Positions 23,127 to 64,000 of a DNA stretch of 64,000 nt are shown in pieces. The position numbers and the translations under genes were made by a program. The first letter of the stretch is position 1, and every line of letters begins with the position of its first letter. Origin of the DNA: Naegleria gruberi (Eukaryota); the NCBI GenBank assembly GCA_000004985.1, contig GG738897.1; one strand, written 5' to 3'. The notes beneath the pieces are model-generated. The model did not search any database and was not told where the DNA came from. It saw nothing but the letters and a program-made list of their open reading frames with translations.

Positions 23127-26100
23127 ATGAGCAATTCCAACCCGAGAGGAGGAGGATATGGTGAGTCAGCATCATCATCTCTGGGTGGTGGTGGTCAAGT
23201 AAAGGAATCTAAACGATATACGATGGATTTTAAAAAACTTGGTCTCAATCCCATGAATTTGAATAAATCATCAAATAATAGCAAGACAAATAATTTAGGA
23301 GGAGCTAACAGTTTATTACAACAAATAATTAATGATGATAAGAATTATCATTTGCAACAAGTGGGTGAAGTGATTGAAGGACAAACTACGGAGGGAATTA
23401 ATGATGTGTTTTTTAATGTACCTCCAGGTAAATTTAAAGTACAAGTTTCGAATACGACTGGAACTGGATTGAGAATATTTTCATCTGTAGTGTTGAGAGC
23501 TGATGTTTCATGTCAATCATCAGTGACATCAACTATTCAAAATGATAATGATCAATTACATAATTCAGAAAATATAGAAAAAGGTAATTCATGGAGTACT
23601 CTTGTTACAACACCAATGGATTCACAACAATCTACAATTAGAATTACTTTATTTTGTGAACCACCTGATGCTAAATGTAGTTACAAAATTCAAGTTCATC
23701 AAATTTTTAATATTGTACATACTAAAGGTTTCGAATTGGGAAAAGGTGAGGAAAATGATTACAAATTTGATTTGAGTCCTGGTCAATATCACATATTTGT
23801 TCAATCATTGAATTCTCAACCATTTGCTTGTAGTTATCAATTAGCCAATTCTACAAGTTATTCAGAGGATAATATCAAAGATTTAAAGATTCTTCCACAT
23901 CCAATTGTGGTCATCATTGAAGATGATCAACAACAGAGTACCAATTTACTTGATGTGAAAGTTGCATCAAAAACACAAAAAGCAGTCAAGGCAAAATTAT
24001 TAATTTTACAATCTATTAGTGAATTTGAATTGAAAAGAACTCTGGATAGTGAACAGAGAGTTACAATTAATGAGTTTAAATCATTAATTGATGATAGTTA
24101 CAGAGAAAGAAATGTAGAAACAATGCAAGGATTGGAATTAATGTTGACAGATTTATATGAAAAGAAGGGGTCAAGATTTCAACCTATTCATGCCTATGGG
24201 AAGGCAATGAAAACTCATTTGGAAGAATCTTTGGAATTGGAAAAACAGTTAAAAGAAATCACTCATGTTGATAATAATTTGTTAAAATCAAATTTGTTGG
24301 ACAATTTGATTAAACAATTTAAGAATTTGAAATACTTGACAGAGAAAAACAAACTTGACACTAAGGTTTTGATCAATCTTTCTGAATCAGAGCAAAAAGT
24401 AATCAAATTCAAGGAAATTGTAAAGAAAATCAATGAATGGAAACCAAAATTGAAGGAAGTCCTGCACAATCCAGACAGCAAAGTTCTCCAGGAAACACTT
24501 GATCAAATTAGTGACGATACACTTTTACAAGATGATTCGTGCTCTGAAATTATCAATAACATGCTTGAAGAACCGTCAATTTTGCTGAAACGACTTCAAG
24601 CAGTTGACAAGACCAAAAAGAAAATCAAAAAGTTCGTTGCTGAGGAAAATGAAACTGCTCTTCAATCACTTAAACCTGTCATTGAAGATTATGACAAGGT
24701 AGAGAGAAAATACATTGAAAAGGAGTATAATCTCATTCTCCAAACATTGGAAAAGATTAGTTTGAGAAAGAATGCAGAAAAGAAATTGAGAGAAGCCATT
24801 TTAACAAAACAAACTCACAGAATTGGTGCTGATATCAAAGCTTTTGAACCATATCTGAAAGGAACTGATCTACTCAGAGATGCCAAGCAAATATTGGAAG
24901 ATTTACTTGACAATGGTGATGCCGACGTTTCTAAATATTTACATGGAGCAGATGAGGTGATTGTTGCTTCTCCACCAATTCAAAAATCAACACCCAAACA
25001 ACCAGAACCTAAAAATCCATCGAGTCCAGTAGTGAAAATTCCACTCACCAACAAGGAAGATTTACTGAATAGTTTACTTGCTGAGGATGATGGCTTACCG
25101 AGTGCCAGAGGAGAAAATACAGAACCACTGAAAGCAACAACAATTAATTCGCCAACCACTTCAACAAGTGCTGTTGAACCATCTACTGCCTCCTCTGTTA
25201 AATCGCCACAGGAGGAACAAGTTCAAACTGAAAGGGAAAAGAAGGATGCCTTGTTGAATTCCATTCTTGCAGATGATGATGGATATGAAGAACAAGTGAC
25301 CAATATTCAACAACCATCAGCAGCTGTTGTTGCAACAAAAACGGTCAAGAAGATTCCAACCAAGATTTCAATTCCAAAAACTAAAAAGATTACAAAAAAT
25401 AGTGATTCTGGTAAGATAATCAACTCTATCAGATCTCCAATGACAGATAAACAAAAGACTGGAAGTACAGATACTCAATCTGATATTAGTGAGCTTTCTG
25501 ATAGTGATTACGAAATGTCAGATGATGAAGATGAAATTCCAAAACCAAAAGCTTCACTTTTAGAATCACTTGGATCAATATATAGTGATGTGTTAACAGA
25601 GGATGACAAGAAGAGTTCTGAAAATATTGCATCATCACCAATACCACTTGATATTCTTTTGAGAAAACCATCTTCAACTCCAACTGAAATACCAAAGAAG
25701 GATCAAGACTTTACTCCAAAGAATAGCAGTCCAATCGTCAGTTCCATGTCTCCAAAGGAACAACAACCATTGCCAACCATTAAAACAAGTATTGAGAAGA
25801 AAGCAGAACAAACAGTTACCTTCTCTCCTCAATTTCCAACTCCAAAACCTAAAAAGACAGTCTTCTCTCAAGCATCTGTTCTCCAAAATAAGAAGCAATG
25901 GCAAGATGAGTTGAAGCAGAAAGAAAACTCACTCTTGGAGAGATTTGAAAGGATGATTTCCAAACCAGTGAGTAATACATTGGATATTAACAATAAGGAA
26001 ATGGTAAAACTCATGATGAGACAACACAAAATATCAAACCATCCTCTGCTTAATCAACTTCACCAGGAAATACTCATTCTCATTAATAGCAATGGAGGCG

Positions 26101-27326
26101 ATCCTAGAAATAATGGTGTGATAACAGTCACCAAATTTGATCATTTTGTGGAACATGATATTGTGTATAGTCCAATTAATACTCAAAATGGAACACTTTC
26201 ACAATATACAGCTCAATACTATGATCACTTTATCAAAATATTGGCAAGTGTTTGTTTGAATAGAACTAAAAAGAAGTTCTTTGGAATGTCAGAAAGAACA
26301 TTCTACAGTATTCTATACGATTGTGTTTCTGATAACAGTTTGGTAATGATTAATGATCCATCACTGAGATATATGAATACTCATAGAATTCACTTGTTAT
26401 TGGAATATTTTGATTCAAAGAAATATGCCCAGAAATATCAACAACAATATCAACAATCCAAGGATATTAGTTTAATGGAATTCTTGTTGGATATTGGTGA
26501 ATTGGTTGATATTTTCAATTTTATTTGTAAATATTGTAATAATTACTTATCAACAGTTTATGATCCAACATCAATCATGGTAGATAGTACTCATAGAGAT
26601 GAATTCCTCTCAATTGTTGAATTATTGAATCAGATGAACTTTTGTTTAGGATACACTCCAAAAAAACTTGATGTTTATGCAATTAATATTCATTTGAAAG
26701 GAAGTGTTGAAAATGTACTTCAACTCACAAGAGCAACAGAGGATATTGCTAAATTTGTTGGATCTAAGAAGAATCTCAAAGTTGATGATCTAGTTCACAT
26801 ATCAAAGTTTGCCAGATGTACTCTGTGTCCAATTCTTGAACGAATTTTCAAGCAGGGAATTAAATTCCAATCAGTAATGAAAGGATACTATCACATATGG
26901 AGTGTAATTCTTGAAATGTTTTATTATTTACAATATCAATTGCCTGATTATGTAAAGAGTGGGTTGTCGACTGCCATTGCCCAACAGGAATTAATTGACA
27001 CTTCAGGTTTGAGTAATGAACAATTACACTACTTTGATTTTGTTCATTACACACTCCTTATTTCTAAATCCATTACTAGAAACGAGCTGCTTTTCGATAG
27101 GCATTTACATTTTAGAACTTGGTTGTGTTTGGCATTGAATCATCACAGATTATTCAATTTTATTAATTTAATATTCAAGAATCAAGCTATACTGAAGAGA
27201 TATTACAATATTGAAGCATCTATATTAGATCCTCACGTTCAAGAATTAATATTATCATGTGTGAACACACTGTGTGAAATTGATTTCCAAATCAAATTGG
27301 ACCATCCTGAAATGTATAATTTTTAA
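23127..27326 (+). CDS. Very large (1399 aa) uncharacterised protein with coiled-coil middle region and Ser/Thr/Pro-rich linker.
   Basis: Single uninterrupted 4.2-kb ORF. There is a predicted coiled-coil region (LKRTLDSEQRVTINEFKSLIDDSYRERNVETMQGLELMLTDLYEKK...) and a conserved-looking C-terminal globular region (FFGMSERTFYSILYDCVSDNSLVMINDPSLRYMNTHRIHLLLEYF...). No motif I can name confidently. Confidence 0.5.
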   Translation: MSNSNPRGGGYGESASSSLGGGGQVKESKRYTMDFKKLGLNPMNLNKSSNNSKTNNLGGANSLLQQIINDDKNYHLQQVGEVIEGQTTEGINDVFFNVPPGKFKVQVSNTTGTGLRIFSSVVLRADVSCQSSVTSTIQNDNDQLHNSENIEKGNSWSTLVTTPMDSQQSTIRITLFCEPPDAKCSYKIQVHQIFNIVHTKGFELGKGEENDYKFDLSPGQYHIFVQSLNSQPFACSYQLANSTSYSEDNIKDLKILPHPIVVIIEDDQQQSTNLLDVKVASKTQKAVKAKLLILQSISEFELKRTLDSEQRVTINEFKSLIDDSYRERNVETMQGLELMLTDLYEKKGSRFQPIHAYGKAMKTHLEESLELEKQLKEITHVDNNLLKSNLLDNLIKQFKNLKYLTEKNKLDTKVLINLSESEQKVIKFKEIVKKINEWKPKLKEVLHNPDSKVLQETLDQISDDTLLQDDSCSEIINNMLEEPSILLKRLQAVDKTKKKIKKFVAEENETALQSLKPVIEDYDKVERKYIEKEYNLILQTLEKISLRKNAEKKLREAILTKQTHRIGADIKAFEPYLKGTDLLRDAKQILEDLLDNGDADVSKYLHGADEVIVASPPIQKSTPKQPEPKNPSSPVVKIPLTNKEDLLNSLLAEDDGLPSARGENTEPLKATTINSPTTSTSAVEPSTASSVKSPQEEQVQTEREKKDALLNSILADDDGYEEQVTNIQQPSAAVVATKTVKKIPTKISIPKTKKITKNSDSGKIINSIRSPMTDKQKTGSTDTQSDISELSDSDYEMSDDEDEIPKPKASLLESLGSIYSDVLTEDDKKSSENIASSPIPLDILLRKPSSTPTEIPKKDQDFTPKNSSPIVSSMSPKEQQPLPTIKTSIEKKAEQTVTFSPQFPTPKPKKTVFSQASVLQNKKQWQDELKQKENSLLERFERMISKPVSNTLDINNKEMVKLMMRQHKISNHPLLNQLHQEILILINSNGGDPRNNGVITVTKFDHFVEHDIVYSPINTQNGTLSQYTAQYYDHFIKILASVCLNRTKKKFFGMSERTFYSILYDCVSDNSLVMINDPSLRYMNTHRIHLLLEYFDSKKYAQKYQQQYQQSKDISLMEFLLDIGELVDIFNFICKYCNNYLSTVYDPTSIMVDSTHRDEFLSIVELLNQMNFCLGYTPKKLDVYAINIHLKGSVENVLQLTRATEDIAKFVGSKKNLKVDDLVHISKFARCTLCPILERIFKQGIKFQSVMKGYYHIWSVILEMFYYLQYQLPDYVKSGLSTAIAQQELIDTSGLSNEQLHYFDFVHYTLLISKSITRNELLFDRHLHFRTWLCLALNHHRLFNFINLIFKNQAILKRYYNIEASILDPHVQELILSCVNTLCEIDFQIKLDHPEMYNF

Positions 27327-27327
27327 T

Positions 27328-28554
27328 TTATTTAACAATATTAAATTTTGAAATTTTCTTAGCTAGATATGTTGATAAAAAGTTTAATCCCTTCACTGTA
27401 ATGATTATCTCAATTTCGAATTTTCTTAATTTCATACTTTGCAATTCATCTCTGACATGATCTAGTTCTTTTCTTTTGATGGAATCCTTGATATGACGAT
27501 CAATAAGATTAATTTCTCTTTGAGATATTGGCTGATTGTAATAATGTGGAATGTCCTTAACATCTTCGTAATTCATTCCAAGCCATTGAAGTCTATCTTT
27601 GAGTGCTGACTCTTGTTGAACTTTGTGTCTACTCATTTCAACACTTCCATACTTGTATGTACTCATAATTTGATATCCAAAAATATTGAAATCACATAAA
27701 GCATATAATCTAGCATTTGGAAATCTAGTAGAAACATGTTTCACAACATAACGAGTCACAATCGATGGATATCCACATCCAGTAATCAACAAACAATTCC
27801 TAACAAGTTTGAAAATCTTATCTTCCACAAGTCTTCTAAATATTGCATCTTTCTCAATAATTAACACAGTGTCCACATTTCCAAAATAATCAATTGAGGG
27901 AAAATCTCCTGGAATGCTTTCCACTGAGGCCTGTTTGTTTCCATTAAGCGATAACAAGCTATTTCCTCTTCCATCATTGCTGTAAATAAATCCCTTACTC
28001 ATGCAAATGATATTCAATAAGGATCTGTCAACCTTCAACACATCACCAACAGTTGACAAACATCTATTACATTGAATTTGATCCCTGAATGTAGTAACAT
28101 TCATATAAAACAATTCTCTCTGAGTAATCTTCTTCCTACAATTCAACAGTAAATGAACATCCTTCATCAACAGCCAAACAAGATGATTCTTCTTAAGATG
28201 ATTATTTTTCAAACTCTTCTTCTCAAATGTTCCACTTTTTGATTTAATTATTTGATGAAGCCTTTCTCCATTAGACTGATTCGAATCCCTTGTTCCGAAT
28301 GAATAATTTAAAATCAAATCTTGTCCATTCTTTTCATCATTCTCAATCAATTTAAATAGAAACTCCAAAACATATGATTCAATCAATGATATAATCTCCT
28401 CATTCGGTAGTAAATAGTGAATCTCACACATCTTTTCAATATCAAACAAGTTTAATTCATCTTCCATATCATCTTCATTCTCCTCCAAAACAAGCCTTGT
28501 TGCATTTTCAGACAAGCCTTGTTCCTCATCCTCAGCATCGTTCTCATGATTCAT
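27328..28554 (-). CDS. SPO11: Spo11 / topoisomerase VI subunit A homolog (meiotic DSB transesterase family).
   Basis: 408-aa ORF. The 5Y-CAP catalytic tyrosine motif QRELFYMNVTTF corresponds to R-D/E-I/L-F/Y-Y. The Toprim acidic motif VLIIEKDAIFRRL...LLITGCGYPSIVTRYVV corresponds to (I/V)L.VEK.A.F.RL...I.T.KG.PD..TR. The following TYKYGS motif is also present. The second acidic Toprim motif reads ALCDFNIFGYQIM where the consensus is D-x-D-P-x-G (see findings). Confidence 0.8.
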   Translation of the reverse strand: MNHENDAEDEEQGLSENATRLVLEENEDDMEDELNLFDIEKMCEIHYLLPNEEIISLIESYVLEFLFKLIENDEKNGQDLILNYSFGTRDSNQSNGERLHQIIKSKSGTFEKKSLKNNHLKKNHLVWLLMKDVHLLLNCRKKITQRELFYMNVTTFRDQIQCNRCLSTVGDVLKVDRSLLNIICMSKGFIYSNDGRGNSLLSLNGNKQASVESIPGDFPSIDYFGNVDTVLIIEKDAIFRRLVEDKIFKLVRNCLLITGCGYPSIVTRYVVKHVSTRFPNARLYALCDFNIFGYQIMSTYKYGSVEMSRHKVQQESALKDRLQWLGMNYEDVKDIPHYYNQPISQREINLIDRHIKDSIKRKELDHVRDELQSMKLRKFEIEIIITVKGLNFLSTYLAKKISKFNIVK

Positions 28555-28723: not shown

Positions 28724-29392
28724 TTACATTAATTTTGTTGTTTGTAGACTACAATTTGAGTTAATAAGATGTTGGAATATATTAGTTTCATAATACTTAC
28801 AATGAGGATTAAGTCTTAGTTTGTTTAAAAACTTTTGTAACCATGTATCTAGAATATTGGTTGGCAAAACGAGCATTTCTCTCATAGTACCTGATTCATT
28901 AACTTGATATGGCTTAGTAAAGCTTGACATGAAATTGAATAAATCATTGGCAATAGCCTTGACTAATTGTTGAACTTGAGATTGTTCCATTTGTTGTTTT
29001 CCGACAGCATTACAAGTCAAATTATTAATTGTATCAATTGGTTCTAAGGAAATACCAACAAATAATTGATCAACATTATTATTATAATTAATTCCTTGGA
29101 AAGCAGATTGAACACTTGATGATGAATCAAAGGATAAAGGAACGTGAATATGTGTACTTGGTTTATCAATTGTCAAGAAATCCAAAAATTCCCAATTATT
29201 TGAATCTTTAGAAATATAAATTGTAAATCCGTGGCTTAATGGAGGCATTCCAACATTTGGCAATGCAAAAATCGTCAACTCCGATATCGATTGTCCATTC
29301 ACTTTATCAGGTATTTGTATAAACCAACGATTTTCACCCACTTGATTAAAATTTGCATAACAAGGTCTTCCAGGACTAACCAATCCAAACAT
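28724..29392 (-). CDS. HIKESHI: Hikeshi (Hsp70 nuclear-import carrier; DUF775/C11orf73 family).
   Basis: MFGLVSPGRPCYANFNQVGENRWFIQIPD... parallels human Hikeshi [29 protein letters not shown]. The C-terminal region is also conserved (NDLFNFMSSFT..., MLVLPTNILDTWLQKFLNKLRLNPHCKYY vs ...[25 protein letters not shown]). Confidence 0.8.
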   Translation of the reverse strand: MFGLVSPGRPCYANFNQVGENRWFIQIPDKVNGQSISELTIFALPNVGMPPLSHGFTIYISKDSNNWEFLDFLTIDKPSTHIHVPLSFDSSSSVQSAFQGINYNNNVDQLFVGISLEPIDTINNLTCNAVGKQQMEQSQVQQLVKAIANDLFNFMSSFTKPYQVNESGTMREMLVLPTNILDTWLQKFLNKLRLNPHCKYYETNIFQHLINSNCSLQTTKLM

Positions 29393-29486
29393 TTTTTTGA
29401 TTTTGTTTTCTAAAAATAAATTTTCATCAATTTTTTGATATTCTTTTTAGGACCTTCTTCGGAATTGGTTTTCGGAATCAGAAAAA

Positions 29487-30146
29487 ATGCCAAAAAAACA
29501 AAAATCTTCTCCACCAGCAACACAAACTTCCGAAGTTATTGAAGAAAAGGAAGTAACATTAACTGCTGATGAGTCAAAAGTAACAAAGGAGGATAAAGAA
29601 AATTTGGAAATAACAGAAGAATATACAATTAATTATTTATCACTTGTTGATCGATATATGAATATTTATAAAAATGATTTGATACCAAATATTAAAAGTG
29701 GATTTTTTGGTTTGTCTACAACCAGATTGAATATGGGTGCTGAATATTTAGGAATCGAGCATATTCCTAATGAAGATATATTAAAATCAAAAATTCATTT
29801 GGATTCACAATCATTGGAAATTATAGATTTTGATAATGTTGCCAGCCATTTTGATAAATCATTAAAAGAAGAGGATGAAGAAGAAAATGGAAAATCCAAA
29901 CTCAGGAATAGAAAATCGAAAAAAGAAACAGAGGAAACTGAGGAATCAAATGGCTCCAAATTGGAAGCTGACTATGAAGAAAATTTAAAAAAGAAGAATC
30001 CTATTTATTGGTATGGAACCATTCAACTTTCAGAAGATTTAGTTCAAGCTCAATCATATTTTGTAAATGCTCTCAAATCTGCTCTAGAATTAGGGAAAAT
30101 TGTAAAGGAGTTGAATGAATTGGAAGCAAAGAAAACTACCATGTAA
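29487..30146 (+). CDS. Uncharacterised acidic protein.
   Basis: 219-aa ORF with an acidic/K-rich middle and predicted helical ends. No recognisable domain. Confidence 0.35.
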   Translation: MPKKQKSSPPATQTSEVIEEKEVTLTADESKVTKEDKENLEITEEYTINYLSLVDRYMNIYKNDLIPNIKSGFFGLSTTRLNMGAEYLGIEHIPNEDILKSKIHLDSQSLEIIDFDNVASHFDKSLKEEDEEENGKSKLRNRKSKKETEETEESNGSKLEADYEENLKKKNPIYWYGTIQLSEDLVQAQSYFVNALKSALELGKIVKELNELEAKKTTM

Positions 30147-56834: not shown

Positions 56835-59800
56835 TCAAATAAAACTTTGATTTGATTTTGTTGGAGATGAAGAAGGTGAAGAATTAGTTGATAATTGTTT
56901 TAAATTTTTCAATCTTGGACTATTTGGACTTGAATTTCCATTTAAATTATTATTGGTAAAAGGTGATTCTAATGAAATATTTCCATTTATAGTATTATTA
57001 TTAACAATTGAACAAATATTTGGAATTGGTAAATTAATATTTCCACTATTTAATTTAATTAAAGAATATTGTTGTAATTTTTTAATAATATTTACATAAG
57101 AATTATTTAAATCACCATTTAAAAGTAATAAAATAATAAAAAATAAATCATCTGAATATTGAATTAAAGGTTTTTTAAATTTAAATGTTAAAAATGTTTT
57201 TAATTGATTAACATCAATATTTGTATTAATTAAATCCTTATTTGGATTAATTTCCAAAATTAGAAGTTGTAATAAAATAAATCCAATACATTTTATATCT
57301 TTTTTAAAATAATCATTTTGATTTTGATTTAAAAGTTCATTCATATTTTCATATTGAATTTGTTCAAATACTAAATTTGTATCGTGATGTTTTTTTAACA
57401 TTGAATTAATTCTTTGTTTTAAAATTCTATTTTGGTTTTGAATTTCTAAATTTGTAAAATCTTGTAAATATTCAATTCCACTTAAAATTATTTCAAAATC
57501 TTTTTCATTAAAAAGTAAAGTTTCTAAATTTAAATGATTATGTACTTGTTGCCTTTTATGGAGATATTGAATAACTTCAATTAATTGTTTTCCTATTTTG
57601 TAAATTTCAATTTCTTCAAATAATATTGTTTGATTTTGTAAAAATTGTTGAAATGTTGGATAATAGTTTGTAACATAATAATAATTATCATTAAAATAAA
57701 ATTCTTCTATTTTTGATTGTAAATATTTATGTTTAAATATATTATATTTAGAAATCTAATTAAATTAAATATAAAAATATAAAATAAATATTAAATTAAA
57801 TATTAAATTAAATTAAAATATATTATAAACATACCATATTTGTAAATTCTGATAAAGTATTAAATTTACTAATAAATGAAATTTCTAATTTTTGTAAATC
57901 ATTTACTTTATAAATAGTATATTGATTTAAATGTTTAATATTTTCAATAATTTTAAATCTTCCATTATAAATAAATTGATCATTAAATTTCTTTAAAAAA
58001 TTAAAAATTGCCTTTTTCTTTTTTCTTGAACTTTTTAATTCTGGTAATTTTAATAAAACTTTATCAAATCTATTTAAACATTCCTTTCTAGCATTACTAT
58101 CATCTAAATGATTTACAAAAACATTTAAAATATCAACAATTGTATCAATAGTTGGTCTTGTTAATGGATGTAATTGTAACATTGATATTACTAATCGAAT
58201 TATTAATTCTGGTATTCCATTATTTTTTAACTTGTTACAAATAATTGAATGAGTTTCATTTTCATCGGTTTTTATAGCTTCATGCATTAAAAATTTAGTT
58301 TCTTGATTTTTTACATTTCTAATAATTTGAATTTCCAATGTTAATAATTCATAAAATACACATCCCAATGAAAATATATCTATTATTATTATTATTATTA
58401 TTATTATTGGTATGAATTAGTATGAATTAGTATCATGATGATGATGATGATATTAAGGTGATGATAAATCCAATTAAATGTTATTAAAATATTAAATATA
58501 TTAAAATATTAAACATACCACTATTTTTATCAATTTTAAAATTACCAGTTGAACATTCAGGTGATAAAGTAATTGGTGTTCCTCTAAAACTAATTGTATT
58601 TAAATCATTTGTTGAAGTTAATAAACCAAAATCACCAATTGCAACTTCTTCCATATTTAGAGTTGAAGAATAATTAATTAAAATATTTTCATTTTTTAAA
58701 TCTCTATAAATTAAATTATTAAAATGAATTTGTTGTAAACCTAAACAAATTTGTAATAAAATATTTAACCAATTTGGAACTGTTTTTAAATTTCTTAATT
58801 TTGAATTTGTAATTAATTGTTGTAATGAAGATTTATAAAAAGGCATAACAAGACAACATGAATATTCATCATTTTTCTTTTCAATTGAATAATCTAAATA
58901 TGGTATTAGATTTGGATGTTTTAAATTTGAAACTTGTTCAATATTCCATTGTAATTCTTTTAATTTAATTGAATCTAAATTTTGTATTAATTTTTTAATA
59001 GCAACATCTCCAAATTGAATTGATTTACAATGAAATACAGTTCCTTCTCCTCCACTTGCTATTTTTTTTAAAACAACATATTTACCATTACATAATGTAT
59101 GTACTGTTATGGATTTTAACCAAATTGGTTCAATTTGAATTAAATTTAAAATTAAATATTTTAATAACATTGAAATATGATTTCCTTTAGAAAATTCAGG
59201 TAATTTACCAATTATTTGTTTACCAAATATCCACATATGTTTTAATGTATAACTAACTAATTGTATATTAAATATTTCCTTCTTTTTCTTTTTTTGATTA
59301 TTCAATTTTTTTAAATCTTGTTCAATAAAACTTTTTATAGCTTCCATACTTGTTTGAAAGGCAATTTGTTCATCTTTAGATATTTTAGAATCGGGAAATT
59401 TAACCCTATCAGATTTTACAAGTAATTTTATAGCTGCCAATATTGAACATGTTAAAATAAAGATTAAATGTGAACATGATTTTTGTGATAATAATGTATA
59501 ATATCTATTCAATTCTATATCTATATTATTACTAGTAGTAGTTGTATTATTTGTATTATTTGTATTATTTGTATTATTTGTATGAGTATTATTAGAATTA
59601 TTAGAATTATTAGATGATGAATTACCCTGATCAATAGTTGCTCTAAATGAAGTTGTAGGTAAATGTAAATTAATTTCCTCAGTGAGTGGATTATGATCAT
59701 TGGAATTGAAAAAATTATTCATACTACTTCTATTTTGATTATTTTGATTATTATTATTGAATGATTTTAAAACTCTACCAAATGTTGCAGGTGTTGGTAA

Positions 59801-62279
59801 TTGTTTTCTATCAACAAAACCAAAAGCATCAATAACTAATTTTTGTAAATCATCAAAATTATTTGGTATTTGAGTAAAGAATGGTTCATTAGAATCTTCA
59901 TCAATTGAACTTAAAATTGTATCTTCTAAATATTGAATAAAAGTTTCAATTATAATTGTAATATTTTGTTCAAATGCAATCATTAGAGTATAAATTAATT
60001 CATTCAATCTTGTTGAATTTTGAAAGAAATTTGTTATATTAATATAAACAAACATGAAATCCTTATTTGATTTTAAATTTAAATGATGATTTTGTATAAA
60101 ATCTTTCATTCTCTTTTTAATTAAAAATAAATAATCAAAATTTTGACCAAATTTATCAATTTGTAATTTTTGAAATTCAATTTGATTTTGTAAATAAGCA
60201 TCAGAAGAAGCTTTAAAATAAAATTCAAAATATTTTAAATCATATTCACCTTGTATCATATCATATAATGAAAGTGATTGAAAATAATCTAATAATTTTT
60301 TATAATTAATTGATTTTTCTGTAATTGAATGTAATGTAAAATAATTATCTAATAATTGAATTTTACTAAATTTATCCATTGGATATATTGCTGATTTTAA
60401 TACTGTTATTACTTTACCATCACATAAAAAATCAAAATGATCAATTTTATAATAATATTGATTAAAATATTTTGTAAAAAATCTACTTTTAATATTTCCA
60501 TTTATAGTAATTATTTTACCTCTATCTGCTATAAATAAATCATTTTCTAATAATTCTGTTACATAATGTGTTAATAATATTTTAATTGGTTTATAATTTG
60601 TATATTCTCCACTACAATATACACTTCCTGAATTACTTAAAAAGTAACAATTATTTTTAGAACATTCAATATCTATAATTGGTATATCTTGTTCTATAAA
60701 ATATGTTAATTTTTCAAATTCTCCATATATATCATTAGTATGATTTAATCCAAATTTACCAAATTGATTTTCACCATATACATATATATTAAATGTTGAT
60801 GTTAAAATTAAAATACTTTTATCATGACATGAAATTTTTTTAATAAAATCTTTTTGAATATTTCTATTATTATTTAAATTATTTATATTATTTAAATTAT
60901 TATTTAAATTTATATTATTTATATTATTATTTAAATTATTTATATTATTTAAATTAGAATTATTTAAATTAGAATTATTTAAAATTAATTGATTATTAAA
61001 ATTTGGAAATGGAATTGGTTTTGTACAAAAATTTTTAACATCTTTACATTTAATTCCAATTTCATCATCATTACAAATTCCACAAATAAATAAATCAAAA
61101 TCTTTTGTAATCATTAAAACATAATATTTTGTTAATGATGAAATTGAATGAATATTTGATGTAATAAGTGTTGGTGTTTTAATTACTTTTAATCTATTAT
61201 CTGTATTACTTGTTATATCTGAATAATAATTAATTCCACATCCATATAAATTACCACTTTCTATATTATTTTAAATATTATTTATTTAATAAATATATTT
61301 AATATTATATTTAGTTCTATATTATTTTAAATATATTGTAAACATACCAGTTAAAAATAAAGTACTTTCATATAAAGTTGTAATTTTCTTAATTTTTTCA
61401 CCTTTAAAATTATTAAATTGTAATCTAGTTGGTATTTGAGTGAGAGGTTTATTATGTCCTAATCCTAATTGATAATTATTATTATTACCTGCTACCCAAA
61501 TACTTTCATCCTCTTTTATTAAATATTAAATATTAAATATGATAAATATTTAAAAACATACCCATTACTATAAAAGTACAATAATTTTCAGTATAAATAT
61601 TTCTAATTCTAGAAACATCAATTGAATCTCTATATTCATTCTTTACACCTAACATTATTAAATGATTTTCATACACTTCAGAGTCTTGTTGATCATCAAA
61701 TTGTTGTTGATCATCATCACCATATAATATATAATCATCATCATCAATGGCTACTAAATATTGTCCATAATTAGTATTCTCTTTAATAATACCACTATTT
61801 AATATTAATGTACTTGATCCACTCAATTTATTTAAGTGATTAATTTTATAAAACAAATATTCTACATTAATAGTATTCTTATTGATCATATATTTACTTA
61901 GTGATGATAATGCTGATGCTGATGCTTTTATATTTTGATTAGATGATGATCCTACTCCTACTATAATATTACTACCACTATTACTACCAGGTGATGATAC
62001 AGGTGAATCTATTGGTGTAGCAATTGATGATCTAAAGCCTAGTGCATTGTTATAATTACCTGAAAGGCTTGTTGATGATGATGATGGTGATATTGAAGTA
62101 TCATTTTTATGAATACTAAAATATTCTTGATCCGAAGTAAATAATTTTAATAAATTCTGAGAACTTGTAGTACTGCCACTAGATGTTGACAGTCTATTAT
62201 TATTGTTATTGGTGAGAATGGATGGTGAAGAATTGGAGGGTGATAGAGAAGGTGAATTTAATGAATGTCTTGAAGACAT
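56835..62279 (-). CDS. Large multi-exon gene encoding an RCC1-repeat + Ser/Thr protein kinase with long Asn/Ser/Thr low-complexity inserts. At least 5-6 exons with very AT-rich introns.
   Basis: Exon ORFs on the minus strand: 61533..62279 (MSSRHSLNSPSLSP...; Ser-rich N-terminus), ~61350-61530 and 58484..61114. The last contains RCC1-like repeats (LYGCGINYY..., YVYGENQFGKFGL, SGSVYCSGEYTNY), then kinase subdomain I-VII (IASGGEGTVFHCKSIQFGDVAIKKL, HPNLIPYLDYS, IYRDLKNENILI, IGDFGLLTS). A ~115-nt intron contains (ATT)8. Then 57823..58368 (kinase subdomains IX-XI: MGCVFYELLTLE..., LHPLTRPT), and then 56835..57401 plus probably the 57402-57720 segment (Asn-rich C-terminal tail). Exact exon ends were not resolved. 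Confidence 0.55.
58381..58404. repeat. (ATT)8 microsatellite. A directly duplicated GTATGAATTA 10-mer lies immediately downstream. Both are inside an intron of the kinase gene.
   Basis: tattattattattattattattatt followed by ggtatgaattagtatgaattagtatc. This is an intronic simple-sequence repeat. Confidence 0.8.
59521..59600. repeat. Coding tandem repeat: ~5 copies of the 10-mer GTATTATTTG (imperfect). It encodes a Thr/Asn-rich (NTNNTNNT...) insert in the kinase gene (minus strand).
   Basis: gtattatttgtattatttgtattatttgtattatttgtatgagtattattagaattattagaattatt is visible directly. It is in frame within ORF 58484..61114. Confidence 0.75.
60841..61000. repeat. Imperfect 12-15-bp AT tandem repeats (aaattatttatatt / atttaaatta variants). 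They encode the poly-Asn/Leu/Ile tract NNSNLNNSNLNNINNLNNNINNINLNNNLNNINNLNNN of the kinase gene.
   Basis: Direct inspection. Repeat units vary by 1-3 nt. The region is in frame on the minus strand. Confidence 0.7.
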
Positions 62280-62468
62280 TTTTTATACTGTCTGACACTT
62301 GGCGTTTGATTGATCAACATTGTGGATAATTGATGGATAAAAACTCTTGAGCAGCAAAGAAAGAGCGGGAAGGTAGTTAACTTCCTTTTTTGAGTGTTAG
62401 CCACAATATTATGAATCAAATTTTGACAACAAAACAATTTAGTGTTGATTATAAATTTAAATGAATCA

Positions 62469-64000
62469 ATGAGTGAATCAGAATCATCACAAGAACAAGT
62501 TGAAATTCTAGATGATTTATCATATATACATAATTATAAAGATGATATATTATTATTAGATGAATTTTATTTATTAAATGATGAAAATGTTTACATTTCA
62601 TTAACTGATAATAATAATAAACAATCTATTTCTATATATGGAATATTATATAATAGTAATAAAATACCAAATAATTTAATTATAGATATGAATAATTTAA
62701 TTCATGAAGATTTAAATATAATAATTTCAAAATTAAAATTAGAATCAAAATTTATTGGAAAATTAATTAATTTTAATATTGAATATGATAAATGTAAAAA
62801 ACCAATAATTTTATTTACTATAAATAGAAATGATAAAATATTTGAATGTGAATGTCTAAGATGTGATTCAGATTATTTTAAAATTTTTAAAAAAATTTAT
62901 AATTTATCTTCAATTACATTTTGTTTAATTTTATCTATTTTTAAATTTCCTAAACATGGAATTAATAAAATTATAAATGAATCAAATTCAATTTCAAAAG
63001 AATTTAAATTAAATATAAATATAAATTTAGAAATAATTAAAAATAATTATAATTTTATTATTGATGAAATTCATAAATTAAATAATGAAAAAATATTTAA
63101 AAGTAAATTTATTAATGAAATTTCAAATATTTTATTTAATAATTCTGAAATGGAAGAATATTCATCAGATTCTTCAGATTCATCTGATTATGATTATAAA
63201 TTAACACCTAAAAAGGAAAGAAAACAATTAAAAAGAAAAAATGAAAATTTAAATTCTAAAAAAAGAAAAAAATTTAAAGAATTTAAAAATGAATTTGAAA
63301 TTGAATTTTTAAAAGATGAAAATTCTATTAAAATTAATAATGAAATTATTCAAGATGGAGAAGCAATATATTTATTTCCATATTTAGAATTATTTCCAGA
63401 TTTTTTAAAAAGTAAAATTGATATAAATTATTATCCTTATTTTATTTTTCAAATTAAATTTAAAAATAATGAAATTTATGGTAAAAGATTATTTAGACAT
63501 TATGATTTAGCCTTTTTAAGTTTAAAAAATAATTTAAATATTTTAACTAGAGATGTAAATGAATTATTTTTAGATGAAAATGAAATTTTAATTCCAATAC
63601 AAAAATACTATATAAGGAAATGTTATGTTTTTTATTTAATTGAAACAAATGAATTTGAATCAATTTCTAAAGATATAAGAGAACGAAGAGATATTTTTTA
63701 TTGTAAACATTTAATTAATATTAAAAATAATTTTCAAAATTTTGAATTACTAAATATAGAAAAATTATATTGTAAAAATATGTTTAATTTAATTGATAAT
63801 TATTCTAAATTTATTTTAAATAATTTAATTATTGAAAATGAAAATACAAGAAATTTATTAATTGGATTGGATTTATTTGGTGGATGTGGAGGTTTATCTT
63901 TTGGTTTATCTAAATCTGGAATTAATATGAAATATGCAATTGATAATAATATTGATGCTATAAATAATTTTCAATTAAATTTTAAAAATTCAAATACTTT
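62469..64000 (+). CDS. 5' part of a large DNA (cytosine-5)-methyltransferase gene. A ~480-aa N-terminal region is followed by C5-MTase motif I. The ORF is open at the window edge.
   Basis: Reading from ATG 62469 I get 510 sense codons with no stop through position 64000, in DNA that is ~85% AT (where random frames hit a stop every ~15 codons). The last 45 residues read LLIGLDLFGGCGGLSFGLSKSGINMKYAIDNNIDAINNFQLNF. This matches C5-MTase motif I and its following helix (L.LFSG.GG...G...AG......A.E.d..A..t...N). It is not in the ORF track because there is no in-window stop. It is preceded by a tiny uORF (ATGAATCAATGA at 62461). Confidence 0.7.
   Translation, partial: MSESESSQEQVEILDDLSYIHNYKDDILLLDEFYLLNDENVYISLTDNNNKQSISIYGILYNSNKIPNNLIIDMNNLIHEDLNIIISKLKLESKFIGKLINFNIEYDKCKKPIILFTINRNDKIFECECLRCDSDYFKIFKKIYNLSSITFCLILSIFKFPKHGINKIINESNSISKEFKLNININLEIIKNNYNFIIDEIHKLNNEKIFKSKFINEISNILFNNSEMEEYSSDSSDSSDYDYKLTPKKERKQLKRKNENLNSKKRKKFKEFKNEFEIEFLKDENSIKINNEIIQDGEAIYLFPYLELFPDFLKSKIDINYYPYFIFQIKFKNNEIYGKRLFRHYDLAFLSLKNNLNILTRDVNELFLDENEILIPIQKYYIRKCYVFYLIETNEFESISKDIRERRDIFYCKHLINIKNNFQNFELLNIEKLYCKNMFNLIDNYSKFILNNLIIENENTRNLLIGLDLFGGCGGLSFGLSKSGINMKYAIDNNIDAINNFQLNFKNSNT

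What the first reader, a model, noticed from the sequence alone, without database searches (positions are those of the whole stretch)
27328..28554. Spo11/TopoVIA homolog in an AT-rich amoeba-like genome, with a non-canonical D-x-N in the second Toprim acidic motif
The ORF has both Spo11 hallmarks: the 5Y-CAP catalytic tyrosine motif (RELFY) and the Toprim glutamate (VLIIEKDAIF). Where Spo11/TopoVIA proteins almost invariably carry D-x-D-P-x-G (Mg2+ ligands; yeast D288/D290 are essential for DSB formation), this protein reads L-C-D-F-N-I-F-G (Asp-x-Asn, Pro replaced by Ile). That suggests either a catalytically altered Spo11 paralog or lineage-specific metal coordination. Separately, genome composition and gene content here look dictyostelid-like, yet sequenced dictyostelids are reported to lack SPO11. 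So either this organism is a different, Spo11-retaining lineage, or this is an unusual retention.
Basis: partly seen in the sequence, partly recalled or inferred. Interest (0 to 1): 0.6.

Follow-up and report, generated by a model that had tools for sequence, protein, structure and literature searches.

The report
Naegleria SPO11-2 gene with its usual DxN motif
This is the already catalogued SPO11-2-type meiotic DNA-breaking enzyme gene of the amoeboflagellate Naegleria gruberi, and its odd Asp-x-Asn metal-binding motif is the published, conserved signature of the SPO11-2 branch, so the finding is real but ordinary.

Summary
The ORF at 27328..28554 (minus strand, 408 aa) is a genuine Spo11/Top6A protein. 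It scores 1.8e-14 against Pfam TP6A_N and 1.9e-30 against the Toprim domain. R146, Y150, E234, D288 and G293 are all in place, and the second Toprim acidic position reads D288-F-N290-I-F-G as reported.

The window is Naegleria gruberi, not a dictyostelid. Removing a 102-nt annotated intron from the ORF gives exactly XP_002672555.1 / NAEGRDRAFT_81222. That gene is one of two N. gruberi Spo11 genes already listed in published meiosis inventories.

The Asn is not an error. N. fowleri, N. lovaniensis, Willaertia magna and a metagenomic relative all read D-F-N-I-x-G, and N. lovaniensis uses different synonymous codons.

It is not a Naegleria oddity either. All ~120 plant SPO11-2 proteins retrieved read D-W-N-P-A-G. 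The closest non-heterolobosean relatives in an exhaustive search are all DxN. The protein groups with SPO11-2 in trees (84-94% bootstrap).

Allen & Maxwell 2024 already describe DxN as the SPO11-2 signature. Yu et al. 2024 report that yeast D290N has little effect, because this residue serves only the non-catalytic metal site B.

Only the Pro-to-Ile change after the Asn is specific to heteroloboseans. Verdict: already known, low interest.

The parts
27328..28554 (-). Complete intronless SPO11-2-type gene (408 aa), N. gruberi NAEGRDRAFT_81222
   Evidence: ORF listed; both Pfam domains. After removing 27396..27497 the translation is identical to XP_002672555.1. The syntenic N. lovaniensis orthologue is a single exon.
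28345..28404 (-). N-terminal helix (residues 51-70) with conserved I58, E59 and L69; probable contact with the B-like subunit
   Evidence: AF2 model predicts helix 51-70 with block pLDDT 84/77. I58, E59 and L69 are invariant in A1. The role is inferred from Brinkmeier et al..
28009..28188 (-). 5Y-CAP / winged-helix domain (residues 123-182), Pfam TP6A_N
   Evidence: E 1.8e-14.
28105..28119 (-). R146-E-L-F-Y150: catalytic tyrosine motif, aligned to yeast R131/Y135
   Evidence: Searches align it to yeast RDIFY. R146 and Y150 are invariant columns.
27352..27867 (-). Toprim domain (residues 230-401), Pfam TOP6A-Spo11_Toprim
   Evidence: E 1.9e-30, model positions 2-170 of 170.
27853..27855 (-). 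E234, Toprim glutamate (metal site A ligand; equals yeast E233)
27676..27693 (-). D288-F-N290-I291-F-G293: the DxN form of the DxDPxG motif. D288 is the site A/B ligand, N290 replaces the site B Asp, and I291 replaces Pro.
27396..27497 (-). 102-nt in-frame GT..AG stretch removed as an intron in the public gene model; it encodes the conserved ELxxMKxxKFEIE segment and is most likely coding
   Evidence: One search shows the exact match of the spliced translation to P0001. M374 is invariant, and E370, E380 and I381 are near-invariant. The Pfam Toprim match runs through the stretch.

Best explanation
The ORF is the SPO11-2 orthologue of Naegleria gruberi (NAEGRDRAFT_81222). It is a type IIB topoisomerase A-subunit relative that cuts DNA through Tyr150 of one protomer acting with the Toprim metal pocket (E234, D288) of the partner protomer. 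Asn290 is the normal state of the SPO11-2 paralogue. It sits at the residue that in yeast Spo11 (D290) helps bind only the structural, non-catalytic metal B, so the catalytic metal A site (E234 + D288) is intact and the enzyme is expected to be cleavage-competent. Shown here: family membership, paralogue assignment, conservation of DxN, and organism identity. Inferred: that it makes meiotic double-strand breaks, probably together with the second Naegleria Spo11 gene (NAEGRDRAFT_50278) and a TOPOVIB-like subunit, as SPO11-1/SPO11-2/MTOPVIB do in plants.
For: Both Pfam domains score far above their cut-offs. The AF2 model (mean pLDDT 74, Toprim blocks 81-95) has only Top6A and Spo11 structures as PDB matches with E<=0.001 (E 2e-13 to 4e-10). 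R146, Y150, E234, D288 and G293 lie in invariant or near-invariant columns. The spliced translation is identical to XP_002672555.1 / NAEGRDRAFT_81222. D-F-N-I-x-G is conserved in N. fowleri, N. lovaniensis, a JGI metagenome relative and Willaertia magna. N. lovaniensis uses GAC TTC AAC where N. gruberi uses GAT TTC AAT, and gene order Vma22 - Hikeshi - Spo11 - large convergent gene is conserved. All ~120 plant SPO11-2 proteins read DWNPAG. In an exhaustive HMMER search, ranks 3-10 after the heteroloboseans are all DxNP, and the four that could be named are Mesostigma, Gefionella, an unidentified MMETSP transcriptome and Chara. In NJ trees the grouping heteroloboseans + streptophyte SPO11-2 against named SPO11-1 has 94% bootstrap, or 90% with the motif columns masked. 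With two archaeal Top6A sequences added the values are 84% and 69%, and grouping with Top6A gets <=2%. The Q in TQR co-occurs with DxN (33 Q/N, 68 K/D, 3 Q/D, 0 K/N). Literature: DxN is always present in plant SPO11-2 and sometimes in protist SPO11-2 (PMC11302465). Yeast D290N has little effect, and D290 binds only site B (PMC11746154). N. gruberi has two Spo11 genes, 50278 and 81222 (PMC8296547). N. gruberi SPO11 and TOPOVIBL appear in the alignments of Brinkmeier et al..
Against: No functional or expression data for this gene were available. Meiosis has never been observed directly in Naegleria. With the motif columns masked and archaeal outgroups included, support for the SPO11-2 grouping falls to 69%, and an alternative grouping with SPO11-1 gets 18%. 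The trees are NJ only, without named eukaryotic SPO11-3 references. The paralogue type of the second Naegleria gene (50278) was not examined, so the heterodimer model is by analogy with plants. The Pro-to-Ile change next to N290 is restricted to heteroloboseans among the DxN proteins seen, and its effect on the metal loop is unknown.
Confidence: 0.82

Rival explanations
1. A catalytically altered or inactive Spo11 paralogue: loss of the second Toprim aspartate (and the Pro) cripples Mg2+ binding, so the protein is a non-cleaving scaffold or regulator.
For: The DxD motif is almost universal in Toprim enzymes, and mutating the second Asp in E. coli topo I strongly reduces DNA binding (cited in PMC11302465). 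Pro291 is also lost.
Against: Yeast spo11-D290N has little effect on recombination, and D290 serves only metal site B (PMC11746154). Plant SPO11-2, which carries DxN, needs its catalytic Tyr for DSB formation (Hartung et al. 2007, as cited). Mamiellales algae have only a DxN SPO11-2. In the Naegleria protein R146, Y150, E234 and D288 are all conserved across five heteroloboseans at only ~46-54% overall identity, which is not the pattern of a dead enzyme.
Confidence: 0.08
2. A SPO11-2 protein that has been recruited to a non-meiotic role, as proposed for Plasmodium SPO11-2, in an organism where sex has never been seen.
For: Allen & Maxwell note that Plasmodium SPO11-2 is essential in asexual stages. 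Giardia Spo11 has been linked to encystation (title of PMC8584520). No meiosis has been observed in Naegleria (text).
Against: Naegleria keeps a full meiotic toolkit (HOP2, MND1, DMC1, MSH4/5 and others) and shows heterozygosity and recombination signatures (PMC9928731). Nothing in the sequence distinguishes this protein from meiotic SPO11-2.
Confidence: 0.08
3. A genuine topoisomerase VI A subunit (SPO11-3/TOP6A) working with a Top6B ATPase.
For: By single-sequence phmmer the best PDB hit is S. shibatae Top6A (1.4e-11), marginally ahead of yeast Spo11 (3.1e-10).
Against: Grouping with archaeal Top6A is recovered in <=2% of bootstraps. Top6A proteins carry DxD. BIN4 and RHL1, whose presence strictly correlates with TopoVI (A and B), were not found in excavates.
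Confidence: 0.02
4. Sequencing or assembly error, or a pseudogene, at the Asn codon.
For: GAT to AAT is a single transition.
Against: Asn is present in five independent heterolobosean sequences, encoded by AAT in N. gruberi and AAC in N. lovaniensis. The ORF is intact, and the domain matches are full length.
Confidence: 0.005

Closest known systems
Plant SPO11-2 (e.g. Arabidopsis AtSPO11-2; here Amaranthus P0006, Camellia P0087, Vitis P0098)
   Same: Same two-domain architecture and similar length (~380-410 aa). It shares TQRELFY at the catalytic Tyr, the EK Toprim Glu, and D-x-N in place of D-x-D. P0006 is the best non-heterolobosean hit in the word-index search (31% identity over 88% of the query). 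The two group together in trees.
   Different: Plants read D-W-N-P-A-G and V-E-K-H. Naegleria reads D-F-N-I-F-G (Pro replaced by Ile) and I-E-K-D. Naegleria also has an acidic, low-confidence N-terminal extension of ~47 residues. A partnership with SPO11-1 and MTOPVIB is shown in plants and only inferred here.
Protist and algal SPO11-2 (Mesostigma, Chara, Gefionella, Galdieria, Paulinella)
   Same: They are the closest representatives in the exhaustive search, and all carry D-[WYF]-N-P-x-G.
   Different: They keep the Pro after the Asn. Identity to the Naegleria protein is low: the one measured, Galdieria P0014, is 24-25%.
S. cerevisiae Spo11 / animal SPO11 (SPO11-1 type)
   Same: Same fold and catalytic residues (yeast R131, Y135, E233, D288). 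PDB 8urq is among the top structural matches.
   Different: The SPO11-1 type has TKRD[IL][FY]Y and D-x-D-P-x-G. It forms a separate clade.
Archaeal topoisomerase VI subunit A (S. shibatae 2zbk, M. jannaschii 1d3y, M. mazei 2q2e/9o0g)
   Same: Same 5Y-CAP + Toprim fold; these are the best Foldseek matches (E 2e-13).
   Different: These are true topoisomerases with a GHKL B subunit and DxD. Phylogenetically they lie outside the eukaryotic SPO11-1/2 group (99% bootstrap).

Membership tests
Spo11 / Top6A (type IIB topoisomerase A subunit) | 5Y-CAP/winged-helix domain with the catalytic Tyr in an R-x-x-x-Y context | tested here: met
   Pfam TP6A_N scores 53.7 bits against a cut-off of 26. R146 and Y150 are invariant columns aligned to yeast RDIFY.
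Spo11 / Top6A (type IIB topoisomerase A subunit) | Toprim domain with the conserved Glu (E-K) and the first Asp of DxD (metal site A) | tested here: met
   Pfam TOP6A-Spo11_Toprim scores 106.5 bits against 24.1. E234 and D288 are conserved.
Spo11 / Top6A (type IIB topoisomerase A subunit) | Second Asp of the DxD motif (metal site B) | tested here: not met
   N290 occupies this column. [quoted passage not shown]
Spo11 / Top6A (type IIB topoisomerase A subunit) | Overall fold | tested here: met
   For the AF2 model, the only PDB matches with E<=0.001 are ten Top6A/Spo11 chains.
Spo11 / Top6A (type IIB topoisomerase A subunit) | DNA cleavage with covalent 5'-phosphotyrosyl linkage | not testable with these tools
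   Needs biochemistry or genetics.
SPO11-2 paralogue clade | Phylogenetic grouping with plant SPO11-2 rather than SPO11-1 or Top6A | tested here: met
   NJ bootstrap is 94% (90% with motifs masked) against SPO11-1, and 84% (69% masked) with archaeal Top6A added. Alternatives get <=18%. The top HMMER neighbours are all DxN type. The method is NJ only, so support is moderate.
SPO11-2 paralogue clade | D-x-N in place of D-x-D | tested here: met
   DFN here; DWN in all ~120 plant SPO11-2. Described as the SPO11-2 signature in PMC11302465.
SPO11-2 paralogue clade | Gln before the catalytic-motif Arg (T-Q-R), which co-varies with DxN | tested here: met
   The window reads TQRELFY. The contingency among the closest representatives is Q/N 33, K/D 68, Q/D 3, K/N 0. 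This is an empirical correlate found here, not a published criterion.
SPO11-2 paralogue clade | Co-occurrence with a SPO11-1 partner and a TOPOVIB-like subunit in the same genome | not tested
   The literature lists a second N. gruberi Spo11 gene (50278) and a N. gruberi TOPOVIBL.
Topoisomerase VI A subunit proper (SPO11-3/TOP6A) | Groups with archaeal/plant Top6A; partner GHKL Top6B plus BIN4/RHL1 | tested here: not met
   Grouping with archaeal Top6A appears in <=2% of bootstraps. BIN4/RHL1, strictly correlated with TopoVI, were not found in excavates. No eukaryotic SPO11-3 reference was included.

The most novel reading that the evidence does not exclude
Heteroloboseans carry a derived form of the SPO11-2 metal loop, D-F-N-I-[FHY]-G. 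It lacks both the second Asp and the otherwise near-universal Pro. If this abolishes metal site B in this protomer, a Naegleria SPO11-1/SPO11-2 heterodimer would have two chemically different half-sites. That would offer a natural test of whether site B is needed for cleavage or only for DNA-end retention. Separately, the in-frame 102-nt GT..AG segment could be a real alternative intron producing a Toprim-truncated regulatory isoform, analogous to the SPO11 splice variants of plants and mammals.
Probability: 0.12. Interest if true: 0.35.

Novelty: already known. Interest (0 to 1): 0.12.

Why it matters
It matters little beyond bookkeeping. The gene is already in the Naegleria meiotic-gene inventories, and the DxN motif is a published hallmark of SPO11-2. 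The apparent conflict with the Spo11-less dictyostelids disappears once the organism is identified.

Two small practical points remain. First, the public N. gruberi gene model (XP_002672555.1) probably removes a conserved part of the Toprim domain as a false intron and should be corrected before it is used in alignments. Second, heteroloboseans add a Pro-less variant (DFNI) to the catalogue of SPO11-2 metal loops. This could interest groups now reconstituting SPO11 cleavage in vitro and asking what metal site B does.

Tried and rejected
(1) A second word-index protein search with the mixed alignment A1 returned almost only Penicillium and Aspergillus Spo11 and added nothing on paralogues.

(2) The exact look-up of the annotated N. 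gruberi model found no contig. Organism identity therefore rests on the exact protein match and the accessions.

(3) Malik et al. 2007 (PMID 17921483) and Hartung & Puchta 2000 (PMC102794) are not held. No supplementary text is held for Brinkmeier et al.. The published paralogue assignment of the Naegleria genes could therefore not be read directly.

(4) I considered that P0211 and P0221 (D-W-D-[IV]-W-G, also Pro-less, with E-D-H instead of E-K-D) might be the second heterolobosean paralogue. P0221 turned out to be Balamuthia mandrillaris, an amoebozoan, so this was rejected.

(5) A strict DxN | DxD bipartition over all 58 taxa is recovered in only 1-2% of bootstraps. A few DxD sequences sit in the DxN clade and the reverse, so the motif is a strong but not perfect clade marker.

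(6) The first bootstrap attempt timed out, and an early tree script failed on alignment parsing. Both were redone.

(7) tRNA and Rfam scans of the window found nothing. A viral-contig scan with the AT-rich kinase ORF was negative.

Full report
**Observation**

The window holds an uninterrupted 408-codon ORF at 27328..28554 on the minus strand.
- It contains TQRELFY (R146, Y150), VLIIEKDAIF (E234) and LCDFNIFG (D288, F289, N290, I291, F292, G293).
- The codons GAT TTC AAT ATT lie at 27693..27682.
- Pfam places TP6A_N at residues 123-182 (E 1.8e-14) and the Top6A/Spo11 Toprim domain at residues 230-401 (E 1.9e-30, the whole model). Both are several-fold above the curated cut-offs.
- Sequence searches of the PDB align D288-F-N290-I-F-G column for column with D-A-D-P-Y-G of S. 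shibatae Top6A, D-G-D-P-Y-G of M. jannaschii Top6A and D-A-D-P-Y-G of yeast Spo11.
- An AlphaFold2 model (mean pLDDT 74; Toprim blocks 81-95, disordered N-terminus) has only Top6A and Spo11 structures as PDB matches with E<=0.001 (E 2e-13 to 4e-10).

**Organism**

The best database hit is a Naegleria gruberi 'predicted protein' of 374 aa.
- Removing window 27396..27497 (102 nt, GT..AG, in frame) from the ORF reproduces that protein exactly, 374 of 374 residues.
- Its accessions are XP_002672555.1 / EFC39811.1 / NAEGRDRAFT_81222.
- The window is thus N. gruberi (Heterolobosea, Discoba), not a dictyostelid or any amoebozoan.
- Herman et al. 2021 list two N. gruberi Spo11 genes, JGI 50278 and 81222, and two in two of the three N. 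fowleri strains (PMC8296547 Table S2).
- The Naegleria pangenome paper also reports SPO11 with paralogues (PMC9928731).
- Brinkmeier et al. include N. gruberi SPO11 and TOPOVIBL in their alignments, and confirm that dictyostelids are the group lacking Spo11.

**Is the Asn real?**

- N. fowleri, N. lovaniensis, a JGI metagenomic relative and Willaertia magna share only 46-54% identity with the window protein. All read D-F-N-I-[FHY]-G and keep R146, Y150, E234, D288 and G293.
- N. lovaniensis encodes the motif as GAC TTC AAC ATT against GAT TTC AAT ATT here. The synonymous differences at both the Asp and the Asn codons exclude a sequencing error and indicate selection for Asn.
- The N. lovaniensis gene lies in the same neighbourhood (Vma22/CCDC115, Hikeshi-like, Spo11, then a large convergent gene) and is a single exon.

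**Is DxN special to this protein?**

No.
- The next-best hit after the heteroloboseans, Amaranthus P0006, reads D-W-N-P-A-G, and Galdieria P0014 reads D-Y-N-P-H-G.
- Searching with P0006 returned 540 proteins. The 120 listed are plant proteins, many named 'meiotic recombination protein SPO11-2' by NCBI. Every one that covers the column reads D-W-N-P-A-G (121 D/N/P rows).
- An exhaustive HMMER search of 1.84 billion representatives used a profile of the five heterolobosean sequences. Ranks 3-10 were all D-x-N-P.
- Of those eight, the four that could be named are Mesostigma, the malawimonad Gefionella, an unidentified MMETSP transcriptome and Chara.
- Among the 148 non-heterolobosean representatives, 53 are D-x-N-P and 77 are D-x-D-P.
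- A Gln before the catalytic-motif Arg (TQR against TKR) co-varies with the Asn: 33 Q/N, 68 K/D, 3 Q/D and 0 K/N.

**Phylogeny**

A midpoint-rooted NJ tree of 148 sequences splits into two groups.
- The largely DxN clade holds plant SPO11-2 and the heteroloboseans.
- The DxD clade holds Zea SPO11-1, animal and fungal SPO11, and Guillardia (names).

| Grouping tested | All columns | Both motif windows masked |
|---|---|---|
| Heteroloboseans + streptophyte SPO11-2 vs named SPO11-1 | 94% | 90% |
| Same, with S. shibatae and M. jannaschii Top6A added (sequences) | 84% | 69% |
| Heteroloboseans with SPO11-1 | 9% | 18% |
| Heteroloboseans with archaeal Top6A | <=2% | <=2% |

This supports assignment to SPO11-2. 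Confidence is moderate rather than decisive, because the method is NJ only and no named eukaryotic SPO11-3 was included.

**What the literature already says**

Allen & Maxwell 2024 (PMC11302465) state the following:
- This was first noted for Arabidopsis SPO11-2 by Hartung & Puchta 2000.
- Mamiellales algae have only a DxN SPO11-2, so the substitution is compatible with DSB formation.

Yu et al. 2024 (PMC11746154) state the following:
- Yeast E233 and D288 coordinate the catalytic metal A and are essential.
- D290N has little effect, and D290 contributes only to the non-catalytic site B.

DxN does not imply catalytic alteration in any strong sense.

**Mechanism**

The protein most likely acts like plant SPO11-2.
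- Tyr150 of one protomer attacks the DNA backbone next to the E234/D288 metal A site of the partner protomer. The amide of N290 offers a weaker or absent ligand for the structural metal B.
- By analogy with plants, the partner would be the second Naegleria Spo11 (50278) within a TOPOVIB-like complex.
- The conserved N-terminal helix (residues 51-70; I58, E59 and L69 conserved) fits the B-subunit-binding helix described by Brinkmeier et al..
- These functional steps are inferred, not shown.

**What is particular to this lineage**

Only the residue after the Asn is particular.
- Heteroloboseans have Ile where nearly all relatives have Pro. This gives six D/N/I rows, which are the window ORF, the annotated model of the same gene, and four other heterolobosean sequences.
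- Among the other DxN representatives, only one reads DxN-S and one reads DxN-V.
- Non-Pro variants also occur sporadically among DxD proteins (V, A, I, L; 13 of 148). The position is therefore variable and the change is minor.

**Gene model**

The public model removes 27396..27497 as an intron. That stretch is most likely coding, for four reasons.
- It is in frame and free of stop codons.
- It encodes ...ELQSMKLRKFEIEII..., which includes the invariant M374 and the near-invariant E370, E380 and I381.
- The Pfam Toprim match runs straight through it.
- The N. lovaniensis orthologue is called as one exon.

The intron is most probably an annotation artefact. A real alternative isoform cannot be excluded without transcript data.

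**Verdict**

This is a correct observation of a known feature in a known gene of a misidentified organism. Novelty: already known. Interest: low.

Noticed in passing
window 27396..27497 (minus strand): The public N. gruberi gene model XP_002672555.1 splices out this 102-nt in-frame GT..AG stretch. It encodes the conserved ELxxMKxxKFEIE part of the Toprim domain, and the N. lovaniensis orthologue is a single exon. The intron is probably false.
   Followed up: yes
window ~56900..64000: GC falls abruptly to 13-23%, against 30-35% in the rest of the window. The island carries Asn/Ser-rich minus-strand ORFs. One is 58484..61114 (876 aa, RCC1-like repeats plus the N-lobe of a protein kinase). Another is 57823..58368, which begins with the kinase subdomain IX motif (GCVFYELLT) and so is probably the next exon of the same gene. 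A viral-contig scan was negative, and the origin of the AT-rich island is unexplained.
   Followed up: partly
window 27324..27330: The stop codon of the 1399-aa RUN-domain gene (23127..27326, +) and the stop codon of the Spo11 gene (27328..28554, -) are separated by a single base. The 3' UTRs of these convergent genes must therefore overlap. The same convergent arrangement with a ~1425-aa gene is seen in N. lovaniensis, but with a 127-nt gap.
   Followed up: partly
window 28724..30146: The upstream neighbours are a Hikeshi-like gene (28724..29392, -) and a Vma22/CCDC115 gene (29487..30146, +). The order Vma22 - Hikeshi - Spo11 is conserved in N. lovaniensis locus L001.
   Followed up: yes
L002 5001..6182 (P0211, ENA metagenome) and L003 4001..6109 (P0221, Balamuthia mandrillaris): Two Spo11-family proteins have E-D-H in place of the Toprim E-K-[DEH], and D-W-D-[IV]-W-G (Pro lost, Trp before the Gly). 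They are 42% identical to each other and group near Guillardia SPO11. This is an amoebozoan-type variant of the metal pocket that was not pursued.
   Followed up: partly
whole window: No tRNA genes and no Rfam family reaching its gathering score were found in 64 kb.
   Followed up: yes
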